A stretch of 64,000 nucleotides of DNA from a virus. This document shows positions 21,477-34,763 of the stretch, one piece after another (position 1 is the stretch's first letter; every line of letters starts with the position of its first letter). The DNA lies in the IMG/VR virus record IMGVR_UViG_3300032607_001425, positions 38,120 to 102,119 of that record, one strand, 5' to 3'. A program made the position numbers and the translations under genes. The notes under the pieces are model-generated. The model was not told the origin of the DNA. It ran no database searches and was given only the letters and a program-made list of their open reading frames with translations.

Positions 21477-22622
21477 CTAGTGGCTGTCGCCATAATCGTG
21501 CTTCTCCGATGCAATTAAATATTCAGGGTTTATTACTTTTGCTACCTTTTTACGATCTCCAGATATGTGCTTTATGACTATTCCCTCGTGAGGAGTTTTT
21601 GTCCTTTCAATGAAGTTGTTGAATACAAAACTGTCTTGGATTTCTTGGTTCCATTTACCTGCATATAGAACTTCTACATGAGGTAATCCTAATAGCTCAT
21701 CTATTTCATATTGAGCAGAATCTGTTGGAAAGTATTCATTATCCATTTTTAAATCAAATCCTGTAAATCTAATATCCTCTAACCCATAGGTGTAGTTCTT
21801 TTGAATTCCTGCTCCATAAATTTCTCCATAAAGAATTAGTCCATCACCAACATAGTCACTTCCATAGATGTAGCATAGGTTCCAAAGCCTTGCTTTGATT
21901 TGATACTTTCCAGCAATTGTTCTCCAAACATCAGTTGAGTAGAATCCTTGAGAATCACTCCCTTTTTCTACATTATGAGATCCGTAGACATACTCGTAAT
22001 CAATCCACTCATCAGTAATTCTTAGGAATTTTTTTACTTTATCCCAAAATGATAATTTAGATTTTTTAACTATTCCGTATCGTGCGTTAGTCCCATGAAT
22101 CTTTCTAGTGATTTGAACTTCATCTTCTTGCGTAAACATTCCGTCAACGTTTTTAAGGTTTGGGAATCTGTAGTAGATGTGGAAGTTTTGATTATCTTGG
22201 TACTTAATCTTTCTACCTGAGGCAAGTTGAATTTGTTTAACTGGTGGTTCGTATTTGGTAATGTTTAGGTGAGACATACAATCTCTCCCCTCAATTACTA
22301 AATCATAGTCACCCATTGATACTTTACCTTTAAGATAGCTTATTGGAATGATTAAGCATTCAGAATAAACTCCTCTTAATTTTACAGTCCTTACTCTATT
22401 GCCTTTTCTTAGGTAAGAAGTAACTCCCATCTGTTCAGATAATTTTTCTGGTATAACTGCATCGGTAGTTGCAATAACTGCTAACCCATCTACTTGAAAT
22501 TCTCCTTTTTTAGTAATAGCATTCCATCCACCTGCAATCACAAGTTCGATGTTATCTGCTCCTTCAATGGCTCTTACTTCGTTTATTTTTGCTATAAAAC
22601 AGCAGCTGTTATTATTTTCCAT
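21477..22622 (-). CDS. RNA ligase (Rnl2/DRB0094 family)
   Basis: N-terminal OB domain (IEGADNIE...LRGVYSE), motif I KIHGTN, YGEIYG..IQ, FDL, EGIV, K.INPEYL. Confidence 0.9.
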   Translation of the reverse strand: MENNNSCCFIAKINEVRAIEGADNIELVIAGGWNAITKKGEFQVDGLAVIATTDAVIPEKLSEQMGVTSYLRKGNRVRTVKLRGVYSECLIIPISYLKGKVSMGDYDLVIEGRDCMSHLNITKYEPPVKQIQLASGRKIKYQDNQNFHIYYRFPNLKNVDGMFTQEDEVQITRKIHGTNARYGIVKKSKLSFWDKVKKFLRITDEWIDYEYVYGSHNVEKGSDSQGFYSTDVWRTIAGKYQIKARLWNLCYIYGSDYVGDGLILYGEIYGAGIQKNYTYGLEDIRFTGFDLKMDNEYFPTDSAQYEIDELLGLPHVEVLYAGKWNQEIQDSFVFNNFIERTKTPHEGIVIKHISGDRKKVAKVINPEYLIASEKHDYGDSH

Positions 22623-24237: not shown

Positions 24238-24888
24238 TTACACTCTAGCCTCATGATGATCCCTAGGAAGTGATGATTTTCTAACAGGCCTATCTTTGAG
24301 AATTTTAAGTACTTCATCCATCGAAATTGGTTCCAGACCATTTCCATCACATCCTACATCCATTGCTCTTCCCTCCATAACTCTTAGGTGTGGTGGTAAG
24401 TGGACATGTCCAAACAGATGTATATTTTCATTGTTCATTCCGTCCCAACTAATGATAGGAAAATGCATGCAAACAAATGTAAAGCTCTCTGTTGTTGCTT
24501 TGTTGATTGGCCTTCTTACTTCAAGTCTTACGTATTGACTTACTGAAGAGAATAGTTTTTGTACTCCCTCTTTGTTCCTTTCGATATGGTGATCGTGATT
24601 TCCAAGTACCAGGTGAATGTTTTTACAAAGTATTCTATCTCTAAATTCTTGTATCTTTTCAAATCCTCCGAATGAAAAATCTCCTAAGTGGATTAAGATG
24701 TCATCTTCACCAACCATGCAGTTAATGTTGTTCACTAAAGTATCGTTCATATGATCAAGTGACTTAAACTCTCTTGTGAAGTTTGAAGCACCTTCCCATT
24801 TCGTAGTAGCACTACAAATGTTTGAGTGAGCGTAATGTGTGTCTGATGTGAAGAACAATTGTTGTCCTTTTTGTAATGTAATTCTCAT
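24238..24888 (-). CDS. Calcineurin-like phosphoesterase
   Basis: TSDTHY.H, HLGDF, GNHD, HFP, GHVH, DVGCDG. Confidence 0.9.
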   Translation of the reverse strand: MRITLQKGQQLFFTSDTHYAHSNICSATTKWEGASNFTREFKSLDHMNDTLVNNINCMVGEDDILIHLGDFSFGGFEKIQEFRDRILCKNIHLVLGNHDHHIERNKEGVQKLFSSVSQYVRLEVRRPINKATTESFTFVCMHFPIISWDGMNNENIHLFGHVHLPPHLRVMEGRAMDVGCDGNGLEPISMDEVLKILKDRPVRKSSLPRDHHEARV

Positions 24889-24954: not shown

Positions 24955-25920
24955 TTAAATAAATTTTGATATATGAAACTCAATTAATTGTTGAGCTTTA
25001 GAAACATCCTCAACCCTAAGTTGTAAATTATTATCAGCGACTTTAGATAAAGTATCTAAATCTACCAATGTTACTGTGGAGAGTTGTGTTACATCGTGAT
25101 CTACGTTAGCAGGTACTGATAGATCGAGTATTAATTTTGGGTTGTTATCGATATTGTTTTTGTTTAGTATAGGTGTTTCAGCATTTGTAGCTACTATTAC
25201 TATGTCAGATACAAATATGTTTGCTTTTAGAGTATTGTAATGTGCTTTACCAACATGAAGTTCTTTTGAAAGTAAATCACTTACCTCCTCTGTCCTATTC
25301 ATTAATGTAATTTTAGTACAGTGGAGATAGTCGATTAAATTTTTACAAGTGCTTCTTCCCATCTTGCCCATACCTACTATTAGTATATTTTTAGTACTTG
25401 CATCTGGAATATTCTTTTTTATGTATTCAATGGCTACTGATGATACTGAGACTATTCCTTTACTTAGGTTAGTATTATTTTTAACTTGTCTTGAGATGTG
25501 GATGACTTTGTTAGTTATTTTTTCTAACTTTCCTCCTAATTTTTGTGCTGTTTTAGATTTATTAATAGCACTTTTTAGTTGACCTATTATTTCATAGTCA
25601 CCAAGTATTTGTGAATCTAATCCACATGCTACTTGTGAAAGATGTCTCAAAGCATCTTCCCTACTTTTTATATAACATTGATCGATAAAGTCATCCTTTG
25701 TTCCTTCTGTCTCAGAACATAGTAGTTCAATTAAACTATCAATACTAGGTCCATACCCATATATCTCAGTCCTATTACAAGTTGATAGAATAAAGAAGTT
25801 TGATAAGTTATTTGTAAGAAGTTTTTTGTACTTACTATCTGAGATAGAATATTTACCTCTTGTTAGTACATTTGATTTTTTATAATTAATTCCGCAAACA
25901 TGAAAATTACTTAACTCCAT
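24955..25920 (-). CDS. hemA: Glutamyl-tRNA reductase (C-terminally shortened)
   Basis: LSTCNRTEIY catalytic motif, GLDSQILGDYEIIGQLK, Rossmann GMGKMG, LDLSVPANVD. Confidence 0.93.
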   Translation of the reverse strand: MELSNFHVCGINYKKSNVLTRGKYSISDSKYKKLLTNNLSNFFILSTCNRTEIYGYGPSIDSLIELLCSETEGTKDDFIDQCYIKSREDALRHLSQVACGLDSQILGDYEIIGQLKSAINKSKTAQKLGGKLEKITNKVIHISRQVKNNTNLSKGIVSVSSVAIEYIKKNIPDASTKNILIVGMGKMGRSTCKNLIDYLHCTKITLMNRTEEVSDLLSKELHVGKAHYNTLKANIFVSDIVIVATNAETPILNKNNIDNNPKLILDLSVPANVDHDVTQLSTVTLVDLDTLSKVADNNLQLRVEDVSKAQQLIEFHISKFI

Positions 25921-25938
25921 TTATGTTAATTTATAACT

Positions 25939-26583
25939 CTAGATCATAAGTTTGGGAAATAATACGTTAGTCATAAAATGTCTTGCTCGATCTTCCCCTA
26001 TCTTAGCTTTTAGCGCACTAAAAGTTCTTTCGTTTTTTGATTGATATTCACAATACTCGTTCTGCTTTATAAATATCTGTTGGAGTTGTTCTTGATCGGT
26101 TGTTTTATGTGCTTGACTATTTAGCTGGTCAAGGTATGTTTCAAATATATCAAATGCTAATTCAAATAACTTATCATGCTCTTCTGGTGTAGGTTTAACT
26201 GCTATAAATTGTTTTGAAAATATAGTAGCCCATACTGGAAGTTTTCTATCTGAATTCCATGTAGTAGTATGAAAATCTTGTTCAAATCCAATTGGAGATA
26301 GATCTAAAAATGCTCCACTTATTTGTTGACTCTTTTCAGAACATACTACATCAAATCCGAAAACTGGGGAGGCATCATTGCTATATGGGAAGCATGTTAT
26401 GTGGAGTACGAGTAAATTATCTTGAAAATACCTTTCAACATGAGCTAATCTAAAGTTTTTAGACTCGTACCTATAGTTTTCCCATCCAAACTCTTCTGTT
26501 TCCAGAAGAGCAGATTGGGGTTGATTTTCAATTAATTGTTTGAATTTTTCACTATGGTGAATAAGTTTACTGCGTAAGTCCAT
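25939..26583 (-). CDS. Ferredoxin-dependent bilin reductase (PcyA/PcyX-like)
   Basis: FRLAHVE, VLHITCFP, PVFGFDVV, LDLSP, LPVWATIFS, Q..YC..Q.KNERT, VLFP. Confidence 0.85.
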   Translation of the reverse strand: MDLRSKLIHHSEKFKQLIENQPQSALLETEEFGWENYRYESKNFRLAHVERYFQDNLLVLHITCFPYSNDASPVFGFDVVCSEKSQQISGAFLDLSPIGFEQDFHTTTWNSDRKLPVWATIFSKQFIAVKPTPEEHDKLFELAFDIFETYLDQLNSQAHKTTDQEQLQQIFIKQNEYCEYQSKNERTFSALKAKIGEDRARHFMTNVLFPKLMI

Positions 26584-27097
26584 CTTCTAATTGTGCTAGG
26601 ATTGCCATATTAAAATCTAAAGCTTTATTTGCTTCATCAGCCCATTCATCTTTTTGTACCGCTCTAACTGCACCCATTGCTTCTCTCATATCTTCAAAAT
26701 CATACATCTTTCCACTTCCTGGTACTCTTTCTTTCATGATCTGTCCTCCGAACATTATAGCTAAATAATTTAGATAAACATGTGGTAGACGTTCAATTTG
26801 GTTTAATGTGTTTAAATACGTTGTGTACTGCTCAGTTGCTGGAAGTATTGCTAGTGGTCCTTCATATGCACCCTGTATATCTGATATTTCACTAATATCT
26901 GCAAATACTGCTTCTGTACGTTGTAAAGAAGGGTGTGGTAATGGAAGTGATTCTATTGTTTGAAAAATTGGAAGTAATTGGTATAGGTACGTTAAGTACT
27001 CTTGGTTGGTAAGTTCTCCTTTAGCCATTTTTTGATTGAAAGGCATTTTTTCTGCTTGAGAATGTTTTTGTTGAATTGCTTCTTTTAATGGTAACAT
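26567..27097 (-). CDS. hemO: Heme oxygenase
   Basis: Start reassigned to MLPLKEAIQQKHSQAE (proximal His); HVYLNYLAIMFGGQ distal helix; EANKALDFN. Confidence 0.88.
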   Translation of the reverse strand: MLPLKEAIQQKHSQAEKMPFNQKMAKGELTNQEYLTYLYQLLPIFQTIESLPLPHPSLQRTEAVFADISEISDIQGAYEGPLAILPATEQYTTYLNTLNQIERLPHVYLNYLAIMFGGQIMKERVPGSGKMYDFEDMREAMGAVRAVQKDEWADEANKALDFNMAILAQLEDGLTQ

Positions 27098-27171
27098 ATT
27101 TGTGTTTTTAAAATTTATACTTATAATATACAAAAAAAGACTTGAATAAACAAGTCTTTCTGTAATTATTT

Positions 27172-27969
27172 TTAAAAAAATTTCCAAATAAATCCTCCTG
27201 CAGATTTTTTCTTCTCTAAAGCACACTGTGATATGTTACTTCCATCTACTTTTAAAGTGCTACTTGCTAATGATATTGAAGTCCATTTTTTAATAAACTC
27301 CCCCTCTAAAGAGTGTTGAAGTATTATTTTTGTATTGTAACCTCTTTCCCTTCTAGTAGCAGTCCGTTTTTGAAGGGATTCCTTAGAGTGTACTACTCCT
27401 TTTTTAGCTTTAGAGATATTACTTCTGTGTTCCTGGGTTATTGTTTTTCCTTTTTTAGCTTTTGATAGCTTGCTTCTGTGATCTTGAGTATGCTTCTTTC
27501 CTTTATTTGCTTTAGATATCTTAGTTGCATGTTCTTGTGTATGTTTTTTTCCACTATTAGCTTTAGACAATTTATCTTTAGTTTTTTGAGAGACTACTCT
27601 TCCTTTGCTAGATTTGGATATCTTCTCCTTTGTCTCATCTGAGTGTGTGTGGGGTATGCCCTCTGTACTAAAGCCTGTACTAGTTGCTTTACACTTATTA
27701 TAGAAATTGGCATTAACCCCTACATTAAACTTATTGTGTAGTTTAATTTCAAGTAGCATAGCCTCCTCTCTTGTATCAAATACGGAGACTATTTTTAATT
27801 TATAATTCTCAGGGTTATTCTTAAATAATTCTTTAAATTTTAAATTAGTAGAACTAGTAAAGTATTTTACTCCTAAATCATTCTCAGGACTGTCAGTAGA
27901 GCTTCTATACCCATAGTAGTGCTTGTTTTCTTGTATAGAGGTGACTCTGTATACGTAGTAGTATTTCAT
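27172..27969 (-). CDS. GIY-YIG endonuclease with tandem NUMOD3 repeats
   Basis: Start reassigned to MKYYYVY; YYG.R, repeated H(T/S).E...K(I/L)S.A.KG units, AGGFIWK. Confidence 0.88.
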   Translation of the reverse strand: MKYYYVYRVTSIQENKHYYGYRSSTDSPENDLGVKYFTSSTNLKFKELFKNNPENYKLKIVSVFDTREEAMLLEIKLHNKFNVGVNANFYNKCKATSTGFSTEGIPHTHSDETKEKISKSSKGRVVSQKTKDKLSKANSGKKHTQEHATKISKANKGKKHTQDHRSKLSKAKKGKTITQEHRSNISKAKKGVVHSKESLQKRTATRRERGYNTKIILQHSLEGEFIKKWTSISLASSTLKVDGSNISQCALEKKKSAGGFIWKFF

Positions 27970-28081
27970 AATAAATAAAAAAGGAGAAATTAAAATACAC
28001 CACATGCAACATGGTATTATTTTAAAATCTCCGTAATATTTTTATCGAGTAGTTGCATTACCCTTTCTTTATTATAAATAG
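27970..28081 (-). ncRNA. Endonuclease leader RNA family B, copy 2
   Basis: Same scaffold; complementary ATGCAAC/GTTGCAT. Confidence 0.72.
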
Positions 28082-28119
28082 CAACTTTTTATGGAAACAT
28101 GTACCTTTTTAGTAAAAAT

Positions 28120-28437
28120 GTTATCGGGAATAATAGTCATATAGACTAAATCAAAACCAAAATCAAAATCAAAGACCTTCTTCTTTTTAAAGACAAAGAC
28201 ACAGTCTAAGGCTCATTTTAATAGCTAGTTATCTTCCTCCATGAGGTTTAAGTAATCTATCTATACGTGAGTTCTATCTCAGTTTGTGATTTTTTAAGAA
28301 GAAGCGAGTTTACAAAGACCCGGAGGTCATTATGTCTGTAGTTGATTAGATATCAATTTATCATATATGTTTTTTAAAAACTACTCTTCCCGATACAAAG
28401 CTCTGAAGGATCAGCTTGTGCCTACCCCCTTAGCACC
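28120..28437 (-). ncRNA. Putative ~310-nt structured RNA downstream of the coiled-coil gene
   Basis: Long-range helices TATCGGGAA/TTCCCGATA, CATATA/TATATG and CTTCTTCTT/AAGAAGAAG; hexamer repeats GTCTTT/GATTTT; no ORF of 60 aa or more. Confidence 0.6.
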
Positions 28438-28440
28438 AAA

Positions 28441-29352
28441 TTATTTTAATTGATTCAAGAATTCATTCACTACATCCTGGAATCTCTCTGCTACTTCAAT
28501 TTTTAAATTGACAGCTTCTTGAATTCTACCTTGACGTGCTTCTTCAAACTCGTGTTGAGCTTTACGTTCTTCTCCAACCCACTTATCATACGCTAGTTTG
28601 TAAGTATTTGCAGCTTCCGAGTTTCTCTCATTCACGCTTGCTTGAATAGTACCTCTCTCTTTCTGAATTTTAGCATTCTCAGTAGTGACAGCATTTTTTA
28701 CTTTGGATTTAAAGTAATTTACTTTTTGCTCATACCCCCTATGCAAAGCTGCTAACTCTTCGTGAATTGTAAGTAAATAGGCAGGTGTGTGGTGAATTTC
28801 CACCTTAAGAGGTGTTTTTTTACCTACTTCAATCTCCATAAACTCTAAAGTTTTGATGGTAGGGAGTTCTGCTCTCAATCTATCCAATTTACCTCCCTTA
28901 TGGATAAACTGCCCAATATGAGATGCATAAGCCTCTGCTTCTAGGTATTCGTTATATTCAGCTGTAGATAAGGTATCCCAACCAAATTCTTCTCCTATTT
29001 CTGTAGGAATTGTTTCTGAAATAAGTTTTGGTCTCTCGGGAGATTCAATTTCATAATTGAATGATTCACGTTTGATTTTATTAATCAATTCGTCCTTAGC
29101 CTTGATGTTCTCCATCAAGAAGGCTTGAGTGGCAGATAATCTTGCTTTTGCTTGTAGCAACTGTACTACGTTTGCAGGGATTGGGTTCCCTTGAGTTTCA
29201 ATATAAGTCTCAGTTCCAATAGTTAATTCTTTTGAAACGTTGTTGATATCAGCCAATTGTGCTGTAATATCTTTTGAACGTTGATTACAAAGGTTTGAGA
29301 TTGATTGTGCTTGGGACATTGATAATCCTTTTGATGCTAATGAATTTTTCAT
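28441..29352 (-). CDS. Coiled-coil protein of unknown function
   Basis: 303-aa helical ORF with its own promoter motif. Confidence 0.75.
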   Translation of the reverse strand: MKNSLASKGLSMSQAQSISNLCNQRSKDITAQLADINNVSKELTIGTETYIETQGNPIPANVVQLLQAKARLSATQAFLMENIKAKDELINKIKRESFNYEIESPERPKLISETIPTEIGEEFGWDTLSTAEYNEYLEAEAYASHIGQFIHKGGKLDRLRAELPTIKTLEFMEIEVGKKTPLKVEIHHTPAYLLTIHEELAALHRGYEQKVNYFKSKVKNAVTTENAKIQKERGTIQASVNERNSEAANTYKLAYDKWVGEERKAQHEFEEARQGRIQEAVNLKIEVAERFQDVVNEFLNQLK

Positions 29353-29420
29353 AACTATGATTTTTATTATTTATTTCTTACTTAAATATACGAACAATAT
29401 TTTAGATATCCAACTTTTTT

Positions 29421-29876
29421 TTAATTTATTTTTAAAGTAAGTATGATATAATCTGCCCAACCCATTGCATGTCCTACTCTGTAGAAGTCATCTTCTGGGA
29501 AGTAATGTGATAAATCTGTATCCCATAACTGATCGTACAATCCTTCTTTAAATGTATCCATATCTGTTGGATAGACTTTAGGTACTAAACATTCTAATTT
29601 TTGTGAGAGGTACTTTGTGGCAAGTTCTTCATTTAGTGCTTTAAAGATTTCAAATGCTTCTGTGCTATTACCATCACCACCATAGTATTTGTAGGTTTTT
29701 GTTAAAGCTTCCTCAACTAGTCTATGCCTTTCTGCATCTTCTTCGGATACTGGTACTTCAGTATGGGTTTTTAGTGAATCTGTAGAAAGTACTGGGAGAT
29801 ATCTTCTAGTAATATACTCTCCAACATACATTCCTAATTGGTAATTTAAGTCTTTTACATCAGGATCTCTTCTCAT
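29421..29876 (-). CDS. Hypothetical protein
   Basis: ORF. Confidence 0.6.
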   Translation of the reverse strand: MRRDPDVKDLNYQLGMYVGEYITRRYLPVLSTDSLKTHTEVPVSEEDAERHRLVEEALTKTYKYYGGDGNSTEAFEIFKALNEELATKYLSQKLECLVPKVYPTDMDTFKEGLYDQLWDTDLSHYFPEDDFYRVGHAMGWADYIILTLKIN

Positions 29877-30430: not shown

Positions 30431-30506
30431 GTGTCCTATACAGGATTCGAACCTGTGACCTTCTCGTTATGAGCGAGCTGCTCTAGCCAACTGAGCTAAA
30501 AGGACA
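30431..30506 (-). tRNA. tRNA-Met or Ile2 (CAT)
   Basis: Cloverleaf; anticodon loop CTCATAA. Confidence 0.85.
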
Positions 30507-30512
30507 TTCTAG

Positions 30513-30582
30513 TTGCGACCGGAAGATTCGAACTTCTCCTCAAGGTTATGAGCCTCGTATGCTACCTTTACACTACGTCGCG
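30513..30582 (-). tRNA. tRNA-fMet-like (CAT)
   Basis: C1:A72 mismatch; loop CTCATAA. Confidence 0.8.
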
Positions 30583-30589
30583 ATGTTAG

Positions 30590-30667
30590 CTGACTAATAA
30601 GGATTTGAACCTTACTCCCCTACCTCCTTTAGATTCAGAGGTGGTGTGCACCATTACACCATAATCA
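30590..30667 (-). tRNA. Atypical Gln-like tRNA with possible CTA (amber) anticodon
   Basis: D arm GGTGTAATGG, T arm GGTTCAAATCC; anticodon arm ACCTC-TGAATCTAAAG-GAGGT with an enlarged loop. Confidence 0.45.
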
Positions 30668-30717
30668 ATCGAGGTTTTCGAACACCTCAGTCATAGGTTA
30701 ATTACTCCTATGGTTTG

Positions 30718-30789
30718 CGGTCTATGAGGGAATCGAACCCTCGCCTCTGACGTGACAAGCCAGTACTGCTACCATTACACAAATAGACC
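30718..30789 (-). tRNA. tRNA-Asp (GTC)
   Basis: Loop TTGTCAC. Confidence 0.88.
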
Positions 30790-30865
30790 AAATTACCTGT
30801 CTGTTCCAGGTTGTCAACTACTTACCAATTAGCCTCATTGGTCAATCCTCTTATAGTCGATTTTG

Positions 30866-30937
30866 TGGAGATATAGGGAATTGAACCCTAATTTATGATT
30901 TGCAAAACCATCGTAATAGCCATTATACGATATCCCC
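30866..30937 (-). tRNA. tRNA-Ala (TGC)
   Basis: Loop TTTGCAA; G3:U70. Confidence 0.88.
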
Positions 30938-30942
30938 AATTG

Positions 30943-31014
30943 TAGCCCTGCTGGGAGTCGAACCCAACTTTTATGGATGAAAACCATATGTCCTAACCGA
31001 TAGACGACAGGGCC
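30943..31014 (-). tRNA. tRNA-Glu (TTC)
   Basis: Loop TTTTCAT. Confidence 0.88.
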
Positions 31015-31020
31015 ATTTTG

Positions 31021-31094
31021 AGCAACATGCCGGTCTCGAACCGGCCTTATTCCACATTGGAAGTGTGGTGCCATACCTACTAGGCGAATGTTGC
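31021..31094 (-). tRNA. tRNA-Gly (TCC)
   Basis: Loop CTTCCAA. Confidence 0.88.
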
Positions 31095-31186
31095 AATTTG
31101 AGGTGGAGTTCCTCAGTGTTGCTAAGTTTACTTTTACTTAGTTATAATTACTAACATAATTCCTTTCTCAAGGGAACAACACTTTG

Positions 31187-31259
31187 AGCTTCCTACCGGT
31201 CACGATCCGATAACCTCTTGTTTACAAAACAAGTGCTCTACCAATTGAGCTAAGGAAGC
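31187..31259 (-). tRNA. tRNA-Thr (TGT)
   Basis: Loop TTTGTAA; T-loop ATCGTGA. Confidence 0.85.
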
Positions 31260-31410
31260 AATTAATTAGAATGGGTGTTCAAATCCCTTCTGCAGGTAGA
31301 ACCTGATGCTTTGCTATAAGCTAATTCTAATATTTTTTGTAGGCGACCAGTACTCCGATCCTTCTGCCCATTTAAGGAACTCATATCCACTTTAAGTGGT
31401 CCTACTATCG

Positions 31411-31486
31411 TACACCTGGTGGGAGTCGAACCCACAAAATCTTCTGATCCTAAGTCAGACGGCTTTACCAGTTTACCCACAGGTGC
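31411..31486 (-). tRNA. tRNA-Leu (TAG), short variable arm
   Basis: Loop CTTAGGA. Confidence 0.83.
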
Positions 31487-31647
31487 AATTTTACCGCATG
31501 TGCGGTCACTTATCAATCGGTAGCTCCCTCTCGATATCCATCTGTGGGTGTAACACATTTGGTAGAGGGTCGACTCTTCAATGCTTTCTTATACTTAAAT
31601 ATACGAACTATATTTGTAATATCCAAGCTTTTTTAATTTATTTTTTG

Positions 31648-31719
31648 AGGGCCTCCAGAGAATCGAACTCTGAATCTCACATTTTGCAGACATGAAGCTT
31701 AACCATCAGCCTGAGGCCC
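31648..31719 (-). tRNA. tRNA-Cys (GCA)
   Basis: Loop CTGCAAA. Confidence 0.8.
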
Positions 31720-31848
31720 ATATTCACCTAGCCTGACCTTCCAGACAGTACAAGTCGAGATTAATTTGGCGCCTCGTTTTGTAGTAGGTGATTTATCTTT
31801 CTTATACTTAAATATACGACCTTTATTTGTAGTATCCAACTTTTTTTA

Positions 31849-32355
31849 CTAGAAAAATAAAAATGTTTCCCATTCTTTTGGAATGTATGTTAACTGTTTT
31901 AGAAGCATCAAATAGTGTGGCCTTTTTGGTTCTACTATCTCTTTACCATATTCCTCAAGTGTTAAATCTGCTTTTTGTGAATTACAAGTTCTACAAGCTG
32001 TTACTAAATTATCCCAAGCATTTTCTCCACCTTTTGATTGTGGAATAACGTGGTCAAGTGTTAGTGACTTTACATAATTTGATCCACAATACACACATTC
32101 ATAGTTGTCTCTTTTATAAACATTTTCTCTTGTTAGAGGAACTTTCTGAATGTTTTGTTTTACATATTTGTAAACCCTAATAATTGAAGGTTTAAAAATT
32201 TCTAGTTTTGGATTTACTAATCCGAATGTTTCTGGATGTTCAGCTATTATTTCTGCATTACCCTTATACGAAATCACGAAAGCTCTTTCTGTGGAGATAA
32301 TGCTTCTTGCCATAAAGCTTGAATCAATTACCAGTGTTCTTTGGTGCTTACTCAT
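31849..32355 (-). CDS. HNH endonuclease (McrA-like) within the tRNA array
   Basis: RENVYKRDNYECVYCG...TLDHVIPQSKGG..WDNLVTACRTCN..K. Confidence 0.92.
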   Translation of the reverse strand: MSKHQRTLVIDSSFMARSIISTERAFVISYKGNAEIIAEHPETFGLVNPKLEIFKPSIIRVYKYVKQNIQKVPLTRENVYKRDNYECVYCGSNYVKSLTLDHVIPQSKGGENAWDNLVTACRTCNSQKADLTLEEYGKEIVEPKRPHYLMLLKQLTYIPKEWETFLFF

Positions 32356-32386
32356 GATTTTAATTTTTAATGAAACAATTTACTAG

Positions 32387-32458
32387 CACGCCTGGAAGGT
32401 TACGATCCCTCGATTTTGGGTTTGGAAGCCAATGTGTTACCAATTACACTACAGACGC
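32387..32458 (-). tRNA. tRNA-Trp (CCA)
   Basis: Loop TTCCAAA; T-loop ATCGTAA. Confidence 0.75.
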
Positions 32459-32556
32459 ATTTGTAGGATATCGTTTAACCTACTGTGAATGGCCTATTCA
32501 CCTTAATACTCTAAAGTTGCATCCTAAACGGGAAACTTTGGTATACGATTTTTTTG

Positions 32557-32628
32557 AACCCCTACCTGGACTCGAACCAGGACCAAAACGTTAGAAGCGT
32601 TTTATTCTTCCGATTAAACTATAAGGGC
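32557..32628 (-). tRNA. tRNA-Arg (TCT)
   Basis: Loop CTTCTAA. Confidence 0.87.
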
Positions 32629-32788
32629 AAGTAAAATATAATTAGTAAGTTTTATCAGGAATCTGGGGTCTGATTTCTCAGTGCTTCACACACCCTTAGA
32701 GAGTTGAGTATAAATACTTGTCCTTAGTGTGTACCCTTGCGTAACGTCTCTCCACGTCTTCTTACCTACGATTTGTAATTATATTTTG

Positions 32789-32860
32789 AGGTCCTACCAG
32801 AACTCGAATCTGGATTCTATCGTTCGTAGCGATAAGTTTTTCCAATTAAACTATAAGACC
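32789..32860 (-). tRNA. tRNA-Arg (ACG)
   Basis: Loop CTACGAA. Confidence 0.85.
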
Positions 32861-32865
32861 ATTTG

Positions 32866-32944
32866 TATCCCTGACTGGAGTCGAACCAGCAAGCCTAGGC
32901 ATTTGGGCTTAAACCAAACGTGTTTACCATTTCACCACAGGGAT
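32866..32944 (-). tRNA. tRNA-Leu (TAA)
   Basis: Loop TTTAAGC; variable arm present. Confidence 0.85.
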
Positions 32945-33040
32945 GTAAAGCCAATCCCGTAGATTGGCAGCTCAACTTACGGTATTGAGTTTGAGGAAAC
33001 AAGTTCCTTACCACGTCCTTTACCCTTTGGGCACCGACAG

Positions 33041-33114
33041 TGTGAAGGGTGGGACTCGAACCCACAATCGCCTGAACCACAATCAGGTGCTTTACCAATT
33101 CAGCTACAATCACC
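33041..33114 (-). tRNA. tRNA-His (GTG)
   Basis: Loop TTGTGGT; G-1 present. Confidence 0.87.
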
Positions 33115-33121
33115 ATGTTAG

Positions 33122-33189
33122 TACCGAATACTAGTAACGATCTAGTCTAAGAGCGGATATGAGCCATTCTCGGTCCCTGACCATTCGAT
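33122..33189 (-). tRNA. Miniature atypical tRNA (CAT) with a 3-nt D loop
   Basis: ATCGAAT-GGTC AGG GACC-GA-GAATGG CTCATAT CCGCTC-TTAG-ACTAG ATCGTTA CTAGT-ATTCGGT. Confidence 0.55.
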
Positions 33190-33194
33190 AATTG

Positions 33195-33279
33195 AGGAAA
33201 GAATGAGAATCGAACTCAATCCGGTTACCCGAACATCTCGCTTAGCAGGCGGACTCAACACCATGTTGACTTACTTTCC
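33195..33279 (-). tRNA. tRNA-Ser (GCT)
   Basis: Loop CTGCTAA; long variable arm. Confidence 0.8.
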
Positions 33280-33285
33280 ATTTTG

Positions 33286-33357
33286 TACTTCTAGGAAGAA
33301 TTGAACTTCCATTTCATCCTTATCAGAGATGTGTGCTAACCATTCTACTATAGAAGC
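33286..33357 (-). tRNA. tRNA-Ile (GAT)
   Basis: Loop CTGATAA. Confidence 0.87.
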
Positions 33358-33364
33358 AGTTTTG

Positions 33365-33436
33365 CTGGCCTGGAAGGAATCGAACCTTCATAAGATGATT
33401 AACAGTCATCCGTAATAGCCGTTATACGACAAGCCA
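33365..33436 (-). tRNA. tRNA-Asn (GTT)
   Basis: Loop CTGTTAA. Confidence 0.88.
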
Positions 33437-33441
33437 ATTTG

Positions 33442-33514
33442 TGGGGATTACAGGTTACGCTCCTGTCTCTCATGGGCTTCAACCATGCGCTTTCACTAGA
33501 TTAGCTTAATCCCC
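33442..33514 (-). tRNA. tRNA-Phe (GAA)
   Basis: Loop TTGAAGC; T-loop AGCGTAA. Confidence 0.8.
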
Positions 33515-33526
33515 AATTTAATAAAG

Positions 33527-33597
33527 TGGGGCCGGTAGGAATCGAACCTACCCAGTGAGCTTTTACAGAGCTGCTCGGCACCTTGCCTGTCGTCCCC
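33527..33597 (-). tRNA. tRNA-Tyr (GTA), short variable arm
   Basis: Loop CTGTAAA. Confidence 0.72.
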
Positions 33598-33602
33598 TTT
33601 TG

Positions 33603-33673
33603 TACCTCGTGATGGTTATGCTCCACCGCCTATTGCATGTAAAACAATTACGCTTCTATTACGCCAACGAGGC
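33603..33673 (-). tRNA. tRNA-Val (TAC)
   Basis: Loop TTTACAT; T-loop AGCATAA. Confidence 0.78.
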
Positions 33674-33732
33674 AAATTTAATTCTATGCTCGCAATATGT
33701 AGCTCTATGAATTAATAACAATCTCATCTGTG

Positions 33733-33803
33733 TACCCCTCTCAGGTAATGATCCTGATTCCCGATATTAAAAGTATCGTGCTTCACCTTAAAGCTTGAAG
33801 GGC
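33733..33803 (-). tRNA. tRNA-Lys (TTT)
   Basis: Loop CTTTTAA; T-loop ATCATTA. Confidence 0.8.
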
Positions 33804-33809
33804 AGTTTG

Positions 33810-33882
33810 TCTAAGTGGGAGGGCTCAAACCTCCGGCCTCATGCTCCCAAAGCATGCCATCTACCAACTGATCTACACCTAG
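33810..33882 (-). tRNA. tRNA-Pro (TGG)
   Basis: Loop TTTGGGA. Confidence 0.87.
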
Positions 33883-33896
33883 AAATCTAATTTTTG

Positions 33897-33968
33897 TTAC
33901 CCCTAATGGAATCGAACCACTACCGCATGGACCAAAACCATGTGTACTAACCGTTATACGAAGGGGCA
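33897..33968 (-). tRNA. tRNA-Gln (TTG)
   Basis: Loop TTTTGGT; U1:A72. Confidence 0.88.
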
Positions 33969-33973
33969 AATTG

Positions 33974-34633
33974 TTACTTTATTTTTCTTCCTAATCTCCA
34001 TCCTTCCGGAATTAGATCTCCTTTGTATATTTTTTTATTTTCAACTTCATCTGTTATCCAACAAGTCCCGTATTGGGAATTATTAATTCCTTTTCCTAAA
34101 TCTCTTTCTTTTCTAGTATTTCTTATTTTTTGAAGAGTTTCAGGTTTATGTTTCTTGCCTTTCCAGGAATAGCATTCTGATATGTTGTTAAATTTCACTC
34201 CTCTTTCTTTTGCCTTTTTCTGACCTTTCCTAATTGCTTTGCAGTATTTTTCTCTAAATTCAGGATCTGTCTGTAAAAGTAGTGCTTTTGCTATATTTGC
34301 TGCTGCTCTTCCCTTTATTTTATTTTCTTCTGTGAAGCCTCCTGAACTTCCTTGTTTTAAATTTAAACAGTTTGAATTTTTTAAATCCTGTTCTGTTATT
34401 AAATTAATCTCAGCTTGAACTAATTCTTCTCTTGATTGAAATTGCTCCAGTATTTCTAAGTTAAAACTGTCTCTACCATACTTATTTAATTCGTAATACA
34501 ATCTTTTACCACTTCCCAAGTAACCGTCATCTATACGGTTAGTTGAATGCATTCCCAGGTAGTACCTGTTGTTTATAAGATTTGTAGTCCTATAGGTGAA
34601 ATGATACCTTTTATTCTCTTTGATGTTAGCCAT
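33974..34633 (-). CDS. SegB-like GIY-YIG endonuclease in the tRNA array
   Basis: FTYRTTNLINNRYYLGMHST...YLGSG...KYG; C-terminal GTCWITD...IPEGWRLGR. Confidence 0.88.
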   Translation of the reverse strand: MANIKENKRYHFTYRTTNLINNRYYLGMHSTNRIDDGYLGSGKRLYYELNKYGRDSFNLEILEQFQSREELVQAEINLITEQDLKNSNCLNLKQGSSGGFTEENKIKGRAAANIAKALLLQTDPEFREKYCKAIRKGQKKAKERGVKFNNISECYSWKGKKHKPETLQKIRNTRKERDLGKGINNSQYGTCWITDEVENKKIYKGDLIPEGWRLGRKIK

Positions 34634-34676
34634 ATCTATTGTTTATTATAAATAGGCTAACTTTTCAAAAAGTCTA

Positions 34677-34763
34677 CAGAAGAAGGCGTGAGACTCGAAC
34701 TCACAACGGTTTAACCCGCTACCACTTTTCAAGAGTGGCTCTTGATCCAGCCAGATCTTCTCC
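34677..34763 (-). tRNA. tRNA-Ser (TGA)
   Basis: Loop CTTGAAA; long variable arm. Confidence 0.8.

What the first reader, a model, noticed from the sequence alone, without database searches (positions are those of the whole stretch)
28120..29352. Coiled-coil gene followed by a ~310-nt structured RNA with hexamer repeats
Seen: one of the longest non-coding gaps outside the tRNA region follows the 303-aa helical gene. It has a 5' hairpin region, a ~16-bp closing helix (28122-28137 with 28380-28395), CATATA/TATATG and CTTCTTCTT/AAGAAGAAG helices, and internal hairpins (GACCTCCGGGTC, CCTCATGGAGG). It also has a 6-nt periodic tract: GTCTTT GTCTTT ... GTCTTT GATTTT GATTTT GGTTTT GATTTA GTCTAT. In one frame this tract reads VFVFKKKKVFDFDFGFDLVY with no upstream start codon. 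Inference: a protein-ncRNA pair of unknown function. The repeats could be binding sites for an oligomer, a decoy, or a template or resume frame.
Basis: partly seen in the sequence, partly recalled or inferred. Interest (0 to 1): 0.7.

Follow-up and report, generated by a model that had tools for sequence, protein, structure and literature searches.

The report
New phage RNA with partner protein
Right after an unknown 303-aa phage gene lies a real, abundantly made, intricately folded RNA of about 320 bases that carries two rows of evenly spaced six-base units; RNA and gene travel together in every related phage examined, match no described family, and probably form a protein-docking RNA whose job is still unknown.

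Summary
Window 28112-28440 (minus strand) encodes a ~320-nt structured RNA directly after the 303-aa gene (28441-29352). It is not in Rfam 15.

- Conservation: it follows the gene's homologue in about 76 of 80 related phage loci. In a second set, 98 of 102 loci with the element have the gene upstream; the other four lack room.
- Structure: 38 of 41 consensus pairs show compensatory changes. 93% of cells pair, against 78% when shuffled and 36-53% when slid.
- Strand: G-U outnumbers A-C 175 to 26, which fixes the RNA on the gene strand.
- Hexamer tract: G recurs every sixth column in 13 columns (units G-W-Y-N-U-U). The tracts show no covarying partner and carry 1-nt indels, so they are neither coding nor helix.
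- Expression: lake metatranscriptomes hold whole contigs of 267-291 nt that lie inside the element, with no cover of its flanks.
- Distant relatives: two (31% protein identity in one) keep the same architecture and UUG phasing.
- Protein: unknown fold, predicted homodimer, usually at the end of a same-strand tRNA array.

Best reading: an undescribed RNA-protein pair whose phased units dock protein. A rival is a sponge for host cold-shock proteins, because GUCUUUG is the CspB consensus. This scan found the same family before on other DNA.

The parts
28441..29352 (-). p303: 303-aa partner protein gene of unknown family
   Evidence: ORF. No Pfam or PHROG family. AF2 model has pLDDT 85 and pTM 0.75, with two helix/beta-hairpin/helix modules. 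No convincing fold match. 792 clusters at 50% identity match at E<=1e-3.
28112..28440 (-). The whole structured RNA (~320 nt), from just after the p303 stop codon to the U-run behind the closing helix
   Evidence: Conserved block, gap positions 1-335. Covariation. RNA contigs cover 28125-28415, 28126-28392, 28125-28401 and 28397-28443.
28397..28437 (-). H1: 5' hairpin with conserved loop UAAGCACAAGCYGAU
   Evidence: All 8 outer pairs have compensatory changes. Inner pair GC<->AU. Cognate duplex -11.2 against non-cognate -4.7 kcal/mol.
28380..28395 (-). H2 closing helix, 5' arm
   Evidence: All 13 pairs have compensatory changes. Cognate -21.6 against -9.9 kcal/mol.
28122..28137 (-). H2 closing helix, 3' arm, followed by conserved AAC
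   Evidence: RNA contigs of four runs end at 28124-28126.
28342..28356 (-). H3: variable hairpin ending in the UAAUCA motif
   Evidence: A hairpin at this place in relatives, with different stems.
28317..28328 (-). H4: GC-rich hairpin
   Evidence: Present in the relatives sampled, with unrelated sequences.
28296..28305 (-). HX long-range helix, 5' strand (GCUUCUUCUU)
   Evidence: All 7 pairs have compensatory changes. Cognate -12.1 against -7.8 kcal/mol. The rival local hairpin scores weaker.
28176..28185 (-). HX long-range helix, 3' strand (AAGAAGAAGG)
28268..28281 (-). H7: hairpin UGAG-AUAGAA-CUCA, nearly invariant
   Evidence: Replaced by other hairpins in the most distant aligned members.
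28221..28265 (-). H5 helix (28252-28265 with 28221-28233) capped by the variable hairpin H6 (28236-28246)
   Evidence: 7 of 8 H5 pairs have compensatory changes. H6 is present with different sequences, and with an insertion in some lineages.
28188..28214 (-). Tract A: about 4 phased hexamers (GACUUA GUUUUU GUCYUU GCCUUU in the consensus), apparently single-stranded
   Evidence: Column frequencies. No covarying partner.
28138..28176 (-). Tract B: 6 phased hexamers (GUCUUU GAUUUU GAUUUU GGUUUU GAUUUA GUCUAU), apparently single-stranded
   Evidence: The same place and phasing in distant relatives L300 and L301.
24238..24888 (-). Calcineurin-like metallophosphoesterase. It is the usual gene directly after the RNA in relatives; here a homing-endonuclease and pigment-gene insertion separates it.
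   Evidence: phrog_547 E 3e-41 and PF00149. A homologue lies downstream of the element in 29 loci, starting 60-300 nt after it in the few checked (L005, L007, L009-L011) and 500 to ~2900 nt in others such as L001/L002, L004, L017.

Best explanation
Shown:
- Window 28112-28440(-) encodes a discrete, abundant, structured non-coding RNA of about 320 nt. It belongs to an undescribed and widespread family of phage RNAs.
- It is read from the same strand as the 303-aa gene and lies behind it: directly behind in most loci, and behind a small inserted gene in some. In most lineages that gene sits at the end of a tRNA array.
- Five covarying helices and three variable hairpins form two nested multiloops. 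These present two conserved, apparently unpaired tracts of about ten phased hexamers (G-W-Y-N-U-U).

Inferred:
- RNA and p303 work as one ribonucleoprotein.
- The folded part is a scaffold, and the phased units are docking sites, one protein module per six bases. The docking protein is either p303, a predicted symmetric dimer of two helix/hairpin/helix modules, or a protein that p303 helps to load.
- The RNA is probably released from the tRNA-p303 transcript by processing after the stop codon and ends at the U-run behind the closing helix.
- What the particle does in infection is not known. Its place between the tRNA array and RNA-end-healing-type genes (phosphoesterase, RNA ligase) points to RNA or translation biology.
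For: Linkage:
- The element follows the p303 homologue in about 76 of 80 loci, down to 47% protein identity.
- In an independent sample found by a 16-mer of the RNA, 98 of 102 loci with the element have p303 upstream, and the other 4 lack room.
- Small genes have been inserted between the two in some loci. The RNA's 5' edge is unchanged.

Structure and strand:
- 41 pairs, 93.4% of cells paired, against 78.4% shuffled and 36-53% slid. 38 pairs have compensatory changes, and 0 of 500 shuffles reach the observed values.
- 175 G-U cells against 26 A-C cells.

Tracts:
- Strictly phased G columns, with no covarying partner.
- They are the best-conserved part in the most distant aligned loci.
- They are kept in L300 (31% protein identity, a rodent-gut phage) and in L301.

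Expression:
- 22 RNA runs of 21 studies hold part of the element.
- Whole contigs of 267-291 nt, 95-99% identical, lie inside it. In X1, X2 and X4 there is no cover of 27600-28111 and none of p303 beyond a few bases at its stop codon (X4 contig to 28443).

Protein:
- p303 homodimer score 0.42 against best control 0.00. That mark was reached by 20 of 30 solved homo-pairs and 1 of 23 single chains. The runs agree in at least 95% of contacts, and partner pLDDT is at least 79. The interface includes invariant residues such as E81, E138, E140, H145 and H187/188.
Against: - No binding of any protein to the RNA was tested or could be tested here.
- p303 is not basic (pI 5.9) and has no recognisable RNA-binding fold.
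- Obligate linkage could reflect shared transcription or a shared pathway rather than a physical complex.
- RNA evidence comes from assembled contigs, which cannot give strand, exact ends or true levels.
- The phased tracts are fairly constant in sequence, so their reader could equally be a conserved host protein.
Confidence: 0.45

Rival explanations
1. Sponge or recruiter for host single-strand RNA chaperones. The phased units are tandem sites for cold-shock-domain proteins, or for their RRM-1 counterparts in Bacteroidota. One small protein would bind per six bases, so each RNA would titrate or recruit about ten of them. p303 would have a separate role.
For: - The best-conserved unit, GGUCUUUGA, contains GUCUUUG, and the window also has GUCUUUA.
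- B. subtilis CspB prefers GTCTTTG/T, with C at position 3 and T at positions 2, 4 and 6 (PMC1904285).
- CSPs have six base-binding subsites, and GUCUUUA was crystallised on CspB (PMC7825780).
- Position 3 of the units here is C in most columns.
- Exact GUCUUU[GUA] occurs 1.07 times per element against 0.10 when shuffled. The relaxed unit occurs 5.4 times against 1.5.
- The phage record has no CSD gene of its own.
- I found no paper describing a CSP sponge RNA.
Against: - CSPs bind pyrimidine-rich RNA with low specificity (PMC7825780), so the match is weak evidence.
- 16 of 54 elements have no exact consensus site.
- The idea does not explain the obligate p303 linkage.
- The host is unknown. 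The lack of Shine-Dalgarno sequences suggests Bacteroidota, where RRM-1 proteins may take this role (abstract of PMC13370968), and the RbpB motif reported there (GUAGGAUA) is different.
Confidence: 0.2
2. An RNA that acts without bound protein. It could be a self-assembling or catalytic RNA like other tRNA-island RNAs of phages. It could also be a cis-acting 3' end structure that terminates and stabilises the tRNA-p303 transcript.
For: - It lies at the 3' end of same-strand tRNA arrays in 31 of 40 loci.
- ROOL and GOLLD are likewise phage RNAs 'often near tRNA islands' and need no protein to assemble (PMC12286853).
- The closing helix is followed by a U-run.
Against: - A mere terminator or stabiliser would not keep about 70 nt of unpaired phased sequence down to 31% protein identity.
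- There is no Rfam match to ROOL, GOLLD or any ribozyme.
- It does not explain why p303 is always present.
Confidence: 0.15
3. A gapped-code guide RNA in the manner of VIPR. Protein protomers would polymerise along the repeats, hold the conserved UUG, and present the other bases to read a nucleic-acid target.
For: VIPR shows that phages use short-period repeat RNAs in this way: YNNGG units, a protein filament and a gapped code (bioRxiv 10.64898/2026.04.26.720920 and .720927). The units here have conserved (G, U5, U6) and less conserved positions.
Against: - The period is 6, not 5, and there is no GGY.
- The less conserved positions are not hypervariable and differ from unit to unit.
- The p303 model has no RRM/RAMP core.
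- No complementary target stands out in the window. The best hit is -27.6 kcal/mol, against -26.6 to -28.9 for shuffled tracts.
Confidence: 0.07
4. Not an RNA gene at all: a small protein-coding region or a DNA-level site such as an origin, iterons or a packaging site.
For: The VFVF frame is open in the window. Short direct repeats can be protein-binding sites on DNA.
Against: - There is no start codon. 1-nt indels occur inside the tract (columns 407 and 410).
- The compensatory changes preserve pairing with many G-U and few A-C pairs, which is strand-specific.
- RNA-library contigs cover just the element.
Confidence: 0.03

Closest known systems
ROOL and GOLLD RNAs (large ornate phage and prophage RNAs; PMC12286853)
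   Same: Phage-encoded, elaborately folded, of unknown function, and typically beside tRNA islands on the same strand.
   Different: - No Rfam match.
- Much smaller: ~320 nt, against GOLLD members that often exceed 800 nt (PMC12286853).
- Has an obligate protein-gene partner and long unpaired phased-hexamer tracts. ROOL and GOLLD have no known protein partner and form RNA-only cages.
VIPR systems (Vipr protein + vrRNA; bioRxiv 10.64898/2026.04.26.720920, 10.64898/2026.04.26.720927)
   Same: A phage-encoded protein gene beside an RNA made of short-period tandem units with conserved anchor bases, joined to a structured part.
   Different: - vrRNAs are ~100 nt with 9-16 YNNGG units (period 5) and hypervariable NN.
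- Vipr is a RAMP/RRM protein.
- Here the period is 6, the anchor is UUG, the units are largely conserved, the RNA is 320 nt, and the protein is helical.
Protein-sponge RNAs (CsrB/RsmZ for CsrA, CrcZ for Hfq/Crc, 6S RNA for RNA polymerase); from my own knowledge
   Same: An abundant RNA that displays many copies of a short motif, or a mimic, on a folded scaffold to bind many copies of one protein.
   Different: - Those motifs (GGA in hairpin loops, A-rich) are not phased at a fixed 6-nt period.
- None is phage-encoded with an obligate partner gene.
- No sponge for cold-shock proteins turned up in my search.
TRAP on its (G/U)AG repeat array in Bacillus trp leader RNA; from my own knowledge
   Same: A run of about 11 short units at 5-6 nt spacing, read by one subunit each of an oligomer.
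   Different: - The units here are G-W-Y-N-U-U, not GAG/UAG triplets.
- They lie in a stable trans RNA, not a leader.
- p303 has no TRAP-like beta-sandwich in its model.
T4 stable RNAs 'species 1 and 2' (rnaC, rnaD) at the end of the T4 tRNA cluster; from my own knowledge
   Same: Stable non-tRNA RNAs of unknown function, co-transcribed with a phage tRNA cluster.
   Different: I recall them as much smaller and without a linked protein gene or phased repeats. No sequences were compared here.

Membership tests
Any Rfam 15 family (including ROOL, GOLLD, tmRNA, RNase P, 6S, group I introns, riboswitches) | Match to the family covariance model | tested here: not met
   At gathering thresholds cmscan finds only tRNAs in the window. 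At E<=10 on 26500-29500 it finds only two chance-level hits outside the element.
tmRNA | tRNA-like domain plus a resume codon and tag reading frame | tested here: not met
   ARAGORN finds no tmRNA. The open frame of the tract has no conserved register, because of 1-nt indels.
VIPR vrRNA | 9-16 tandem YNNGG units (period 5) with conserved GGY and hypervariable NN | tested here: not met
   The period is 6. The conserved bases are G1, U5 and U6. The variable positions are few and irregular.
VIPR Vipr protein | RAMP fold: RRM core, G-loop and thumb | tested here: inconclusive
   The AF2 model has long helices and only two beta-hairpins. No RAMP appears among fold-search rows, but absence from those lists does not exclude it.
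Cold-shock-protein binding site array | Single-stranded, pyrimidine-rich heptamer close to GUCUUUG/U, one per six-subsite CSD | tested here: inconclusive
   The sequence feature is present and enriched, measured against the published consensus. 16 of 54 members lack an exact site.
Cold-shock-protein binding site array | Actual binding of CSPs | not testable with these tools
   No RNA-protein prediction or assay is available, and the host is unknown.
TRAP-type attenuator array | About 11 GAG/UAG triplets separated by 2-3 nt | tested here: not met
   The units are G-W-Y-N-U-U, and GAG/UAG are not the repeated triplets. The defining feature is from my own knowledge.
Group I intron carrying the adjacent GIY-YIG endonuclease | Intron core model match and constant association with the endonuclease gene | tested here: not met
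   There is no Rfam intron hit. None of 80 related loci has the endonuclease. The endonuclease brings its own leader.
Type III toxin-antitoxin RNA (ToxI-like) | Tandem ~36-nt repeats upstream of an endoribonuclease toxin gene | tested here: not met
   The units are 6 nt and are embedded in a unique fold downstream of the gene. PADLOC was not searched. The defining feature is from my own knowledge.

The most novel reading that the evidence does not exclude
p303 dimers polymerise along the phased hexamers. They would hold the conserved UUG of each unit and display the other three bases, so that the particle reads a DNA or RNA target through a gapped code. That would be a second, independently evolved repeat-decoded guide system, with a non-RAMP protein and a 6-nt period, alongside VIPR.
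Probability: 0.07. Interest if true: 0.95.

Novelty: categorically new. Interest (0 to 1): 0.8.

Why it matters
This is a widespread RNA-protein pair with no described relative. The protein family has 792 clusters at 50% identity, and I found over 170 phage loci with both parts. Relatives come from lakes and from a rodent-gut phage. The RNA appears in many lake metatranscriptomes, so it seems to be among the more abundant phage transcripts there.

It would be a third kind of ornate RNA attached to phage tRNA islands, and the first with an obligate protein partner. That gives an experimental handle that ROOL and GOLLD lack.

The strictly phased six-base units are a rare and readable feature. 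They predict one protein module per six bases, which gel shifts, CLIP and cryo-EM can test directly.

Tried and rejected
- Single-sequence folding of either strand of the gap is not significant (z -1.6 and -1.5).
- The phages collection gave no match to the DNA or to p303.
- Fold searches with the whole p303 model (Foldseek on PDB and BFVD, VIA wide) and with residues 118-245 alone gave only generic helical matches, Z <= 7.5. Prefoldin and ESCRT-III-like helix/hairpin/helix rows sit at Z ~7, which is noise level. The one real hit is an uncharacterised homologue.
- The PDB sequence profile search and the ESM Atlas gave nothing. Pfam on ten distant family members gave nothing.
- The local hairpin proposed by RNAalifold (tract A with GAAGG) was rejected in favour of the long-range helix HX, which has better cognate-versus-non-cognate contrast and more compensatory pairs.
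- Pairing of tracts A or B with the A-rich 5' regions shows no covariation.
- An antisense target search with tracts A and B across the window found nothing. The best sense-strand hit for tract B equals those of shuffled tracts; no shuffled control was run for tract A.
- The 16-mer scan of 185,579 species genomes gave 99 hits, about chance level. Only one hit holds the element: a 3.7-kb contig in an 'Omnitrophota' bin, probably a phage contig. So there is no host or prophage clue.
- Scans of viral and metagenome contigs with distant family members P0146, P0133, P0100 and P0126 found nothing. A distant-member alignment was too divergent to scan with.
- No covariance model was built. The alignment exceeds 400 columns, and only loci already fetched could have been searched.
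- The units resemble the tRNA-Gln (UUG) anticodon loop (YUUUGAY). I considered this and dropped it, because the A after G is not kept in most units.
- The RbpB motif from Bacteroides papers does not resemble the units.
- Fremin et al. 2023 list candidate structured RNAs of only 29-151 nt, so the whole RNA is not among them. I did not check whether pieces of it are.
Full report
**Setting**

The window is part of a 102-kb IMG/VR virus record, estimated 63% complete. It is a myovirus-type phage with a tail sheath, a family-A DNA polymerase, ribonucleotide reductase, thymidylate synthase and an RNA ligase. It also has an array of 21 tRNA genes at 30431-34761.

All genes around the finding are on the minus strand. 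The order along that strand is:
- the tRNA array;
- two small ORFs;
- the 303-aa ORF 'p303' (28441-29352);
- a 435-nt ORF-free gap (28006-28440);
- a GIY-YIG/NUMOD3 homing endonuclease (27172-28005, probably starting at the ATG at 27971-27969);
- heme oxygenase, a bilin reductase and glutamyl-tRNA reductase;
- a calcineurin-like phosphoesterase.

**The observation**

A fold of the single sequence is not better than shuffles (z -1.6), so the case rests on comparison with relatives. Rfam 15 has nothing here even at E<=10, and ARAGORN finds no tmRNA.

**Conservation and linkage**

A protein-guided scan of IMG/VR returned 80 loci with a p303 homologue at 47-86% identity.
- The first 335 nt of the gap align at about 70% identity directly after the stop codon in most of these loci.
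- A profile finds the element in about 76 of them. Most of the rest end too early; in L069 the profile found none in the ~200 nt held after the gene.
- In several loci one small gene of 196-742 nt has been inserted between p303 and the element. The element's 5' edge is unchanged and again abuts a stop codon in an AAAAUAA context.

An independent sample came from an exact 16-mer of the RNA and gave at least 119 viral loci. Of these, 102 hold the element and 98 have p303 just upstream. The other four have no room for it.

The same 16-mer in one genome for each of 185,579 prokaryote species hits at about chance level. Only one small, probably mis-binned, contig there holds the element. So the pair is a phage feature, and the two parts are never seen apart where that can be judged.

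**Structure**

I aligned 54 distinct elements (A1). RNAalifold and a curated set of 41 pairs give five helices:
- H1, a 5' hairpin whose loop UAAGCACAAGCYGAU is conserved;
- H7, the hairpin UGAG-AUAGAA-CUCA;
- H5, a helix capped by a variable hairpin.

The counts on these 41 pairs:

| Measure | Observed | Control |
|---|---|---|
| Cells forming standard pairs | 93.4% | 78.4% shuffled; 36-53% with partners slid 1-3 columns |
| Pairs with changes on both sides | 38 of 41 | 23.8 shuffled mean |
| Cells with changes on both sides | 406 | 110 shuffled mean |
| Shuffles reaching the observed value | 0 of 500 on every measure | |

A test free of alignment register asks whether each 5' arm pairs better with its own 3' arm than with those of other members. 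It agrees for three helices:
- H1: -11.2 against -4.7 kcal/mol.
- H2: -21.6 against -9.9 kcal/mol.
- HX: -12.1 against -7.8 kcal/mol.

Three further hairpins (H3, H4, H6) recur at fixed places with unrelated sequences. G-U cells outnumber A-C cells 175 to 26, so the folded strand is the gene strand.

**The phased tracts**

Between H5 and HX (tract A) and between HX and the 3' arm of H2 (tract B) lie the best-conserved bases of the RNA.
- G is the majority base at columns 379, 385, 391, 397, 403, 409 and 415, and again at 416, 422, 428, 434, 440 and 446.
- This gives thirteen columns at an exact period of six, with one 1-nt phase shift. Two of the units form the 3' strand of HX.
- The unit is G-[U/A]-[C/U]-N-U-U, with C favoured at position 3.
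- The tracts show no covariation with the A-rich stretches they could pair with: cognate and non-cognate energies are equal.
- They contain 1-nt indels, so they are neither a helix nor a reading frame.
- In the most distant aligned loci, only this 3' half still matches the profile.

**Expression**

The run index lists 22 RNA libraries from 21 lake, river and freshwater studies that hold 26-48% of the element's sampled words. Several of these libraries hold only 22-67 million letters.

I laid four of them on 27600-29500:
- Three give whole contigs of 291, 267 and 277 nt. They cover 28125-28415, 28126-28392 and 28125-28401 at 95-99% identity.
- The fourth gives pieces from 28124 to 28443.
- None of the four covers 27600-28111.
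- Three of them (X1, X2, X4) do not cover p303 beyond a few bases at its stop codon (one X4 contig reaches 28443). The near-identical strain that supplied the element contigs should carry a near-identical p303 gene.

These are contigs. Strand, exact ends and levels are not shown, and the common stop at 28124-28126 is only a hint. Still, the pattern is what a discrete RNA far more abundant than its neighbouring mRNA would give.

**Breadth**

A profile of p303 finds 792 clusters (50% identity) at E<=1e-3 among 1.84 billion representatives. Full-length matches are about 290-370 aa (shorter rows look like fragments), and none of ten distant members scanned has a Pfam domain.

DNA could be fetched for only two distant members, and both have a ~290-nt non-coding stretch right after the gene with the same plan. 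They are bajarodcaudo virus 1 from rodent faeces (31% identity to family member P0146) and a JGI metagenome contig. The shared plan is:
- a small 5' hairpin;
- a 14-16-bp closing helix;
- an inner long-range helix with a purine-rich 3' strand;
- then phased units. In L300 these read UUCUUG CUGUUG AUAUUG GCUUCG UAUUAG. In L301 they read UCUUUG UCCUUA UCUUUG AUAAUG UAUUUG, preceded by three more GUCUUU[GU]-type sites;
- then the closing arm and a U-run.

In the virus record a 58-aa ORF is annotated over this stretch and is probably spurious.

**The protein**

- The AF2 model is confident (pLDDT 85, pTM 0.75). It shows two modules of helix, beta-hairpin and long helix, plus C-terminal helices.
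- Nothing in the PDB or BFVD matches beyond generic helical arrangements. Prefoldin-like and ESCRT-III-like rows sit at Z ~7, within noise.
- The invariant residues are rich in His and Glu: E138, E140, H145, H151, H187, H188, H197, H204, R205 and E208. Some of them fall in the interface of a predicted symmetric homodimer.
- The dimer score is 0.42 against a best control of 0.00. That mark was reached by 20 of 30 solved homo-pairs and 1 of 23 single chains. The runs agree in at least 95% of contacts, and partner pLDDT is at least 79. The model supports pairing but does not show it.
- p303 is not basic (pI 5.9).

**Context**

- In 31 of 40 loci examined, a same-strand tRNA array lies upstream of p303. 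In six of them the last tRNA ends about 30 nt before its ATG. The pair is therefore probably transcribed with the tRNAs.
- In 29 loci a homologue of the phosphoesterase lies downstream of the RNA. It starts 60-300 nt after the RNA in the few loci checked and much further (up to ~2900 nt) in others.
- In this window an endonuclease and a three-gene pigment cassette sit between them. They are absent from all 80 relatives.
- The last ~100 nt of the gap travels with the endonuclease. The same 25-nt motif precedes another GIY-YIG-type start in L003.

**How it most likely works**

Shown: a real, folded, transcribed RNA that is obligately linked to p303 and presents about ten phased, unpaired six-base units.

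Inferred: the units are docking sites read at one protein module per six bases, and the helices are a scaffold that holds the two tracts.

Who docks is open. Linkage favours p303 or a p303-dependent complex, and I put this at 0.45.

A specific rival comes from the literature.
- The heptamer GUCUUUG, the core of the best-conserved unit, is the preferred site of B. subtilis CspB, with the same preference for C at position 3 (PMC1904285).
- Cold-shock proteins have six base subsites and were crystallised on GUCUUUA, a sequence that occurs in this window (PMC7825780).
- Exact sites are eleven-fold enriched over shuffles.

That makes a sponge or recruiter for host single-strand RNA chaperones plausible, at 0.2. 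Three things weigh against it: CSPs are not very sequence-specific, a third of members lack an exact site, and the idea leaves p303 unexplained.

The remaining readings are less likely:
- An RNA-only role or a 3'-end stabiliser: 0.15.
- A VIPR-like gapped guide: 0.07.
- A coding or DNA-level element: 0.03.

**Comparison with what is known**

- The RNA is not a member of any Rfam family.
- It shares the tRNA-island habitat of ROOL and GOLLD (PMC12286853). It is smaller, and it has a protein partner and phased tracts.
- It shares with VIPR the logic of a phage RNA built of short-period units beside its protein gene. It fails VIPR's defining features of period, motif and hypervariable dinucleotides, and its protein model does not look like a RAMP.

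Earlier follow-ups in this scan reached the same family from other genomes and likewise called it an undescribed RNA-protein pair. That is not independent evidence.

What I add here:
- the metatranscriptome contigs;
- the strand test;
- the two distant relatives;
- the tRNA-array and phosphoesterase context;
- the dimer prediction;
- the cold-shock-protein lead.

Noticed in passing
window 24955-28105: The GIY-YIG/NUMOD3 homing endonuclease sits between the RNA and the phosphoesterase, together with heme oxygenase, a bilin reductase and glutamyl-tRNA reductase. In 29 relatives a phosphoesterase homologue lies downstream of the RNA, right behind it in a few. None of the four inserted genes has a homologue in any of the 80 related loci, so they look like a recent insertion, perhaps moved by the endonuclease.
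   Followed up: partly
window 28073-28097; L003:6712-6736: A 25-nt motif (TTTCCATAAAAAGTTGCTATTTATA) upstream of the endonuclease recurs 100% identical in L003. There it lies about 120 nt before another ORF starting MKYILY..., a start of the same MKY... type as this window's GIY-YIG endonuclease (not scanned against Pfam). It is probably the endonuclease's own promoter or leader and not part of the RNA.
   Followed up: partly
L049:4439-4441: The p303 homologue of L049 has an in-frame TAA exactly where all others have the invariant Gln148 (HIG*YIH against HIGQFIH). ARAGORN calls tRNAs with anticodon UUA in the related loci L050, L063 and L065. This suggests TAA is read as Gln in some of these phages.
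   Followed up: no
L300:4418-4594 (PQ006092.1 88046-88222): The 58-aa 'hypothetical protein' annotated right after the p303 homologue of bajarodcaudo virus 1 lies on the RNA-like stretch (5' hairpin, 14-bp closing helix, UUG hexamers). It is probably not a gene.
   Followed up: partly
window 21477-22622 and 24238-24888: An RNA ligase (phrog_968) and a calcineurin-like phosphoesterase lie a few kb downstream of the tRNA array and the RNA. Together they resemble an RNA end-healing and sealing set.
   Followed up: no
window 29353-29380, 27972-27995: Gene starts here lack Shine-Dalgarno sequences and have A/T-rich leaders instead. The nearest ESM Atlas cluster of p303 is mostly Bacteroidota where the phylum is known. 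The host may be a freshwater member of Bacteroidota.
   Followed up: no
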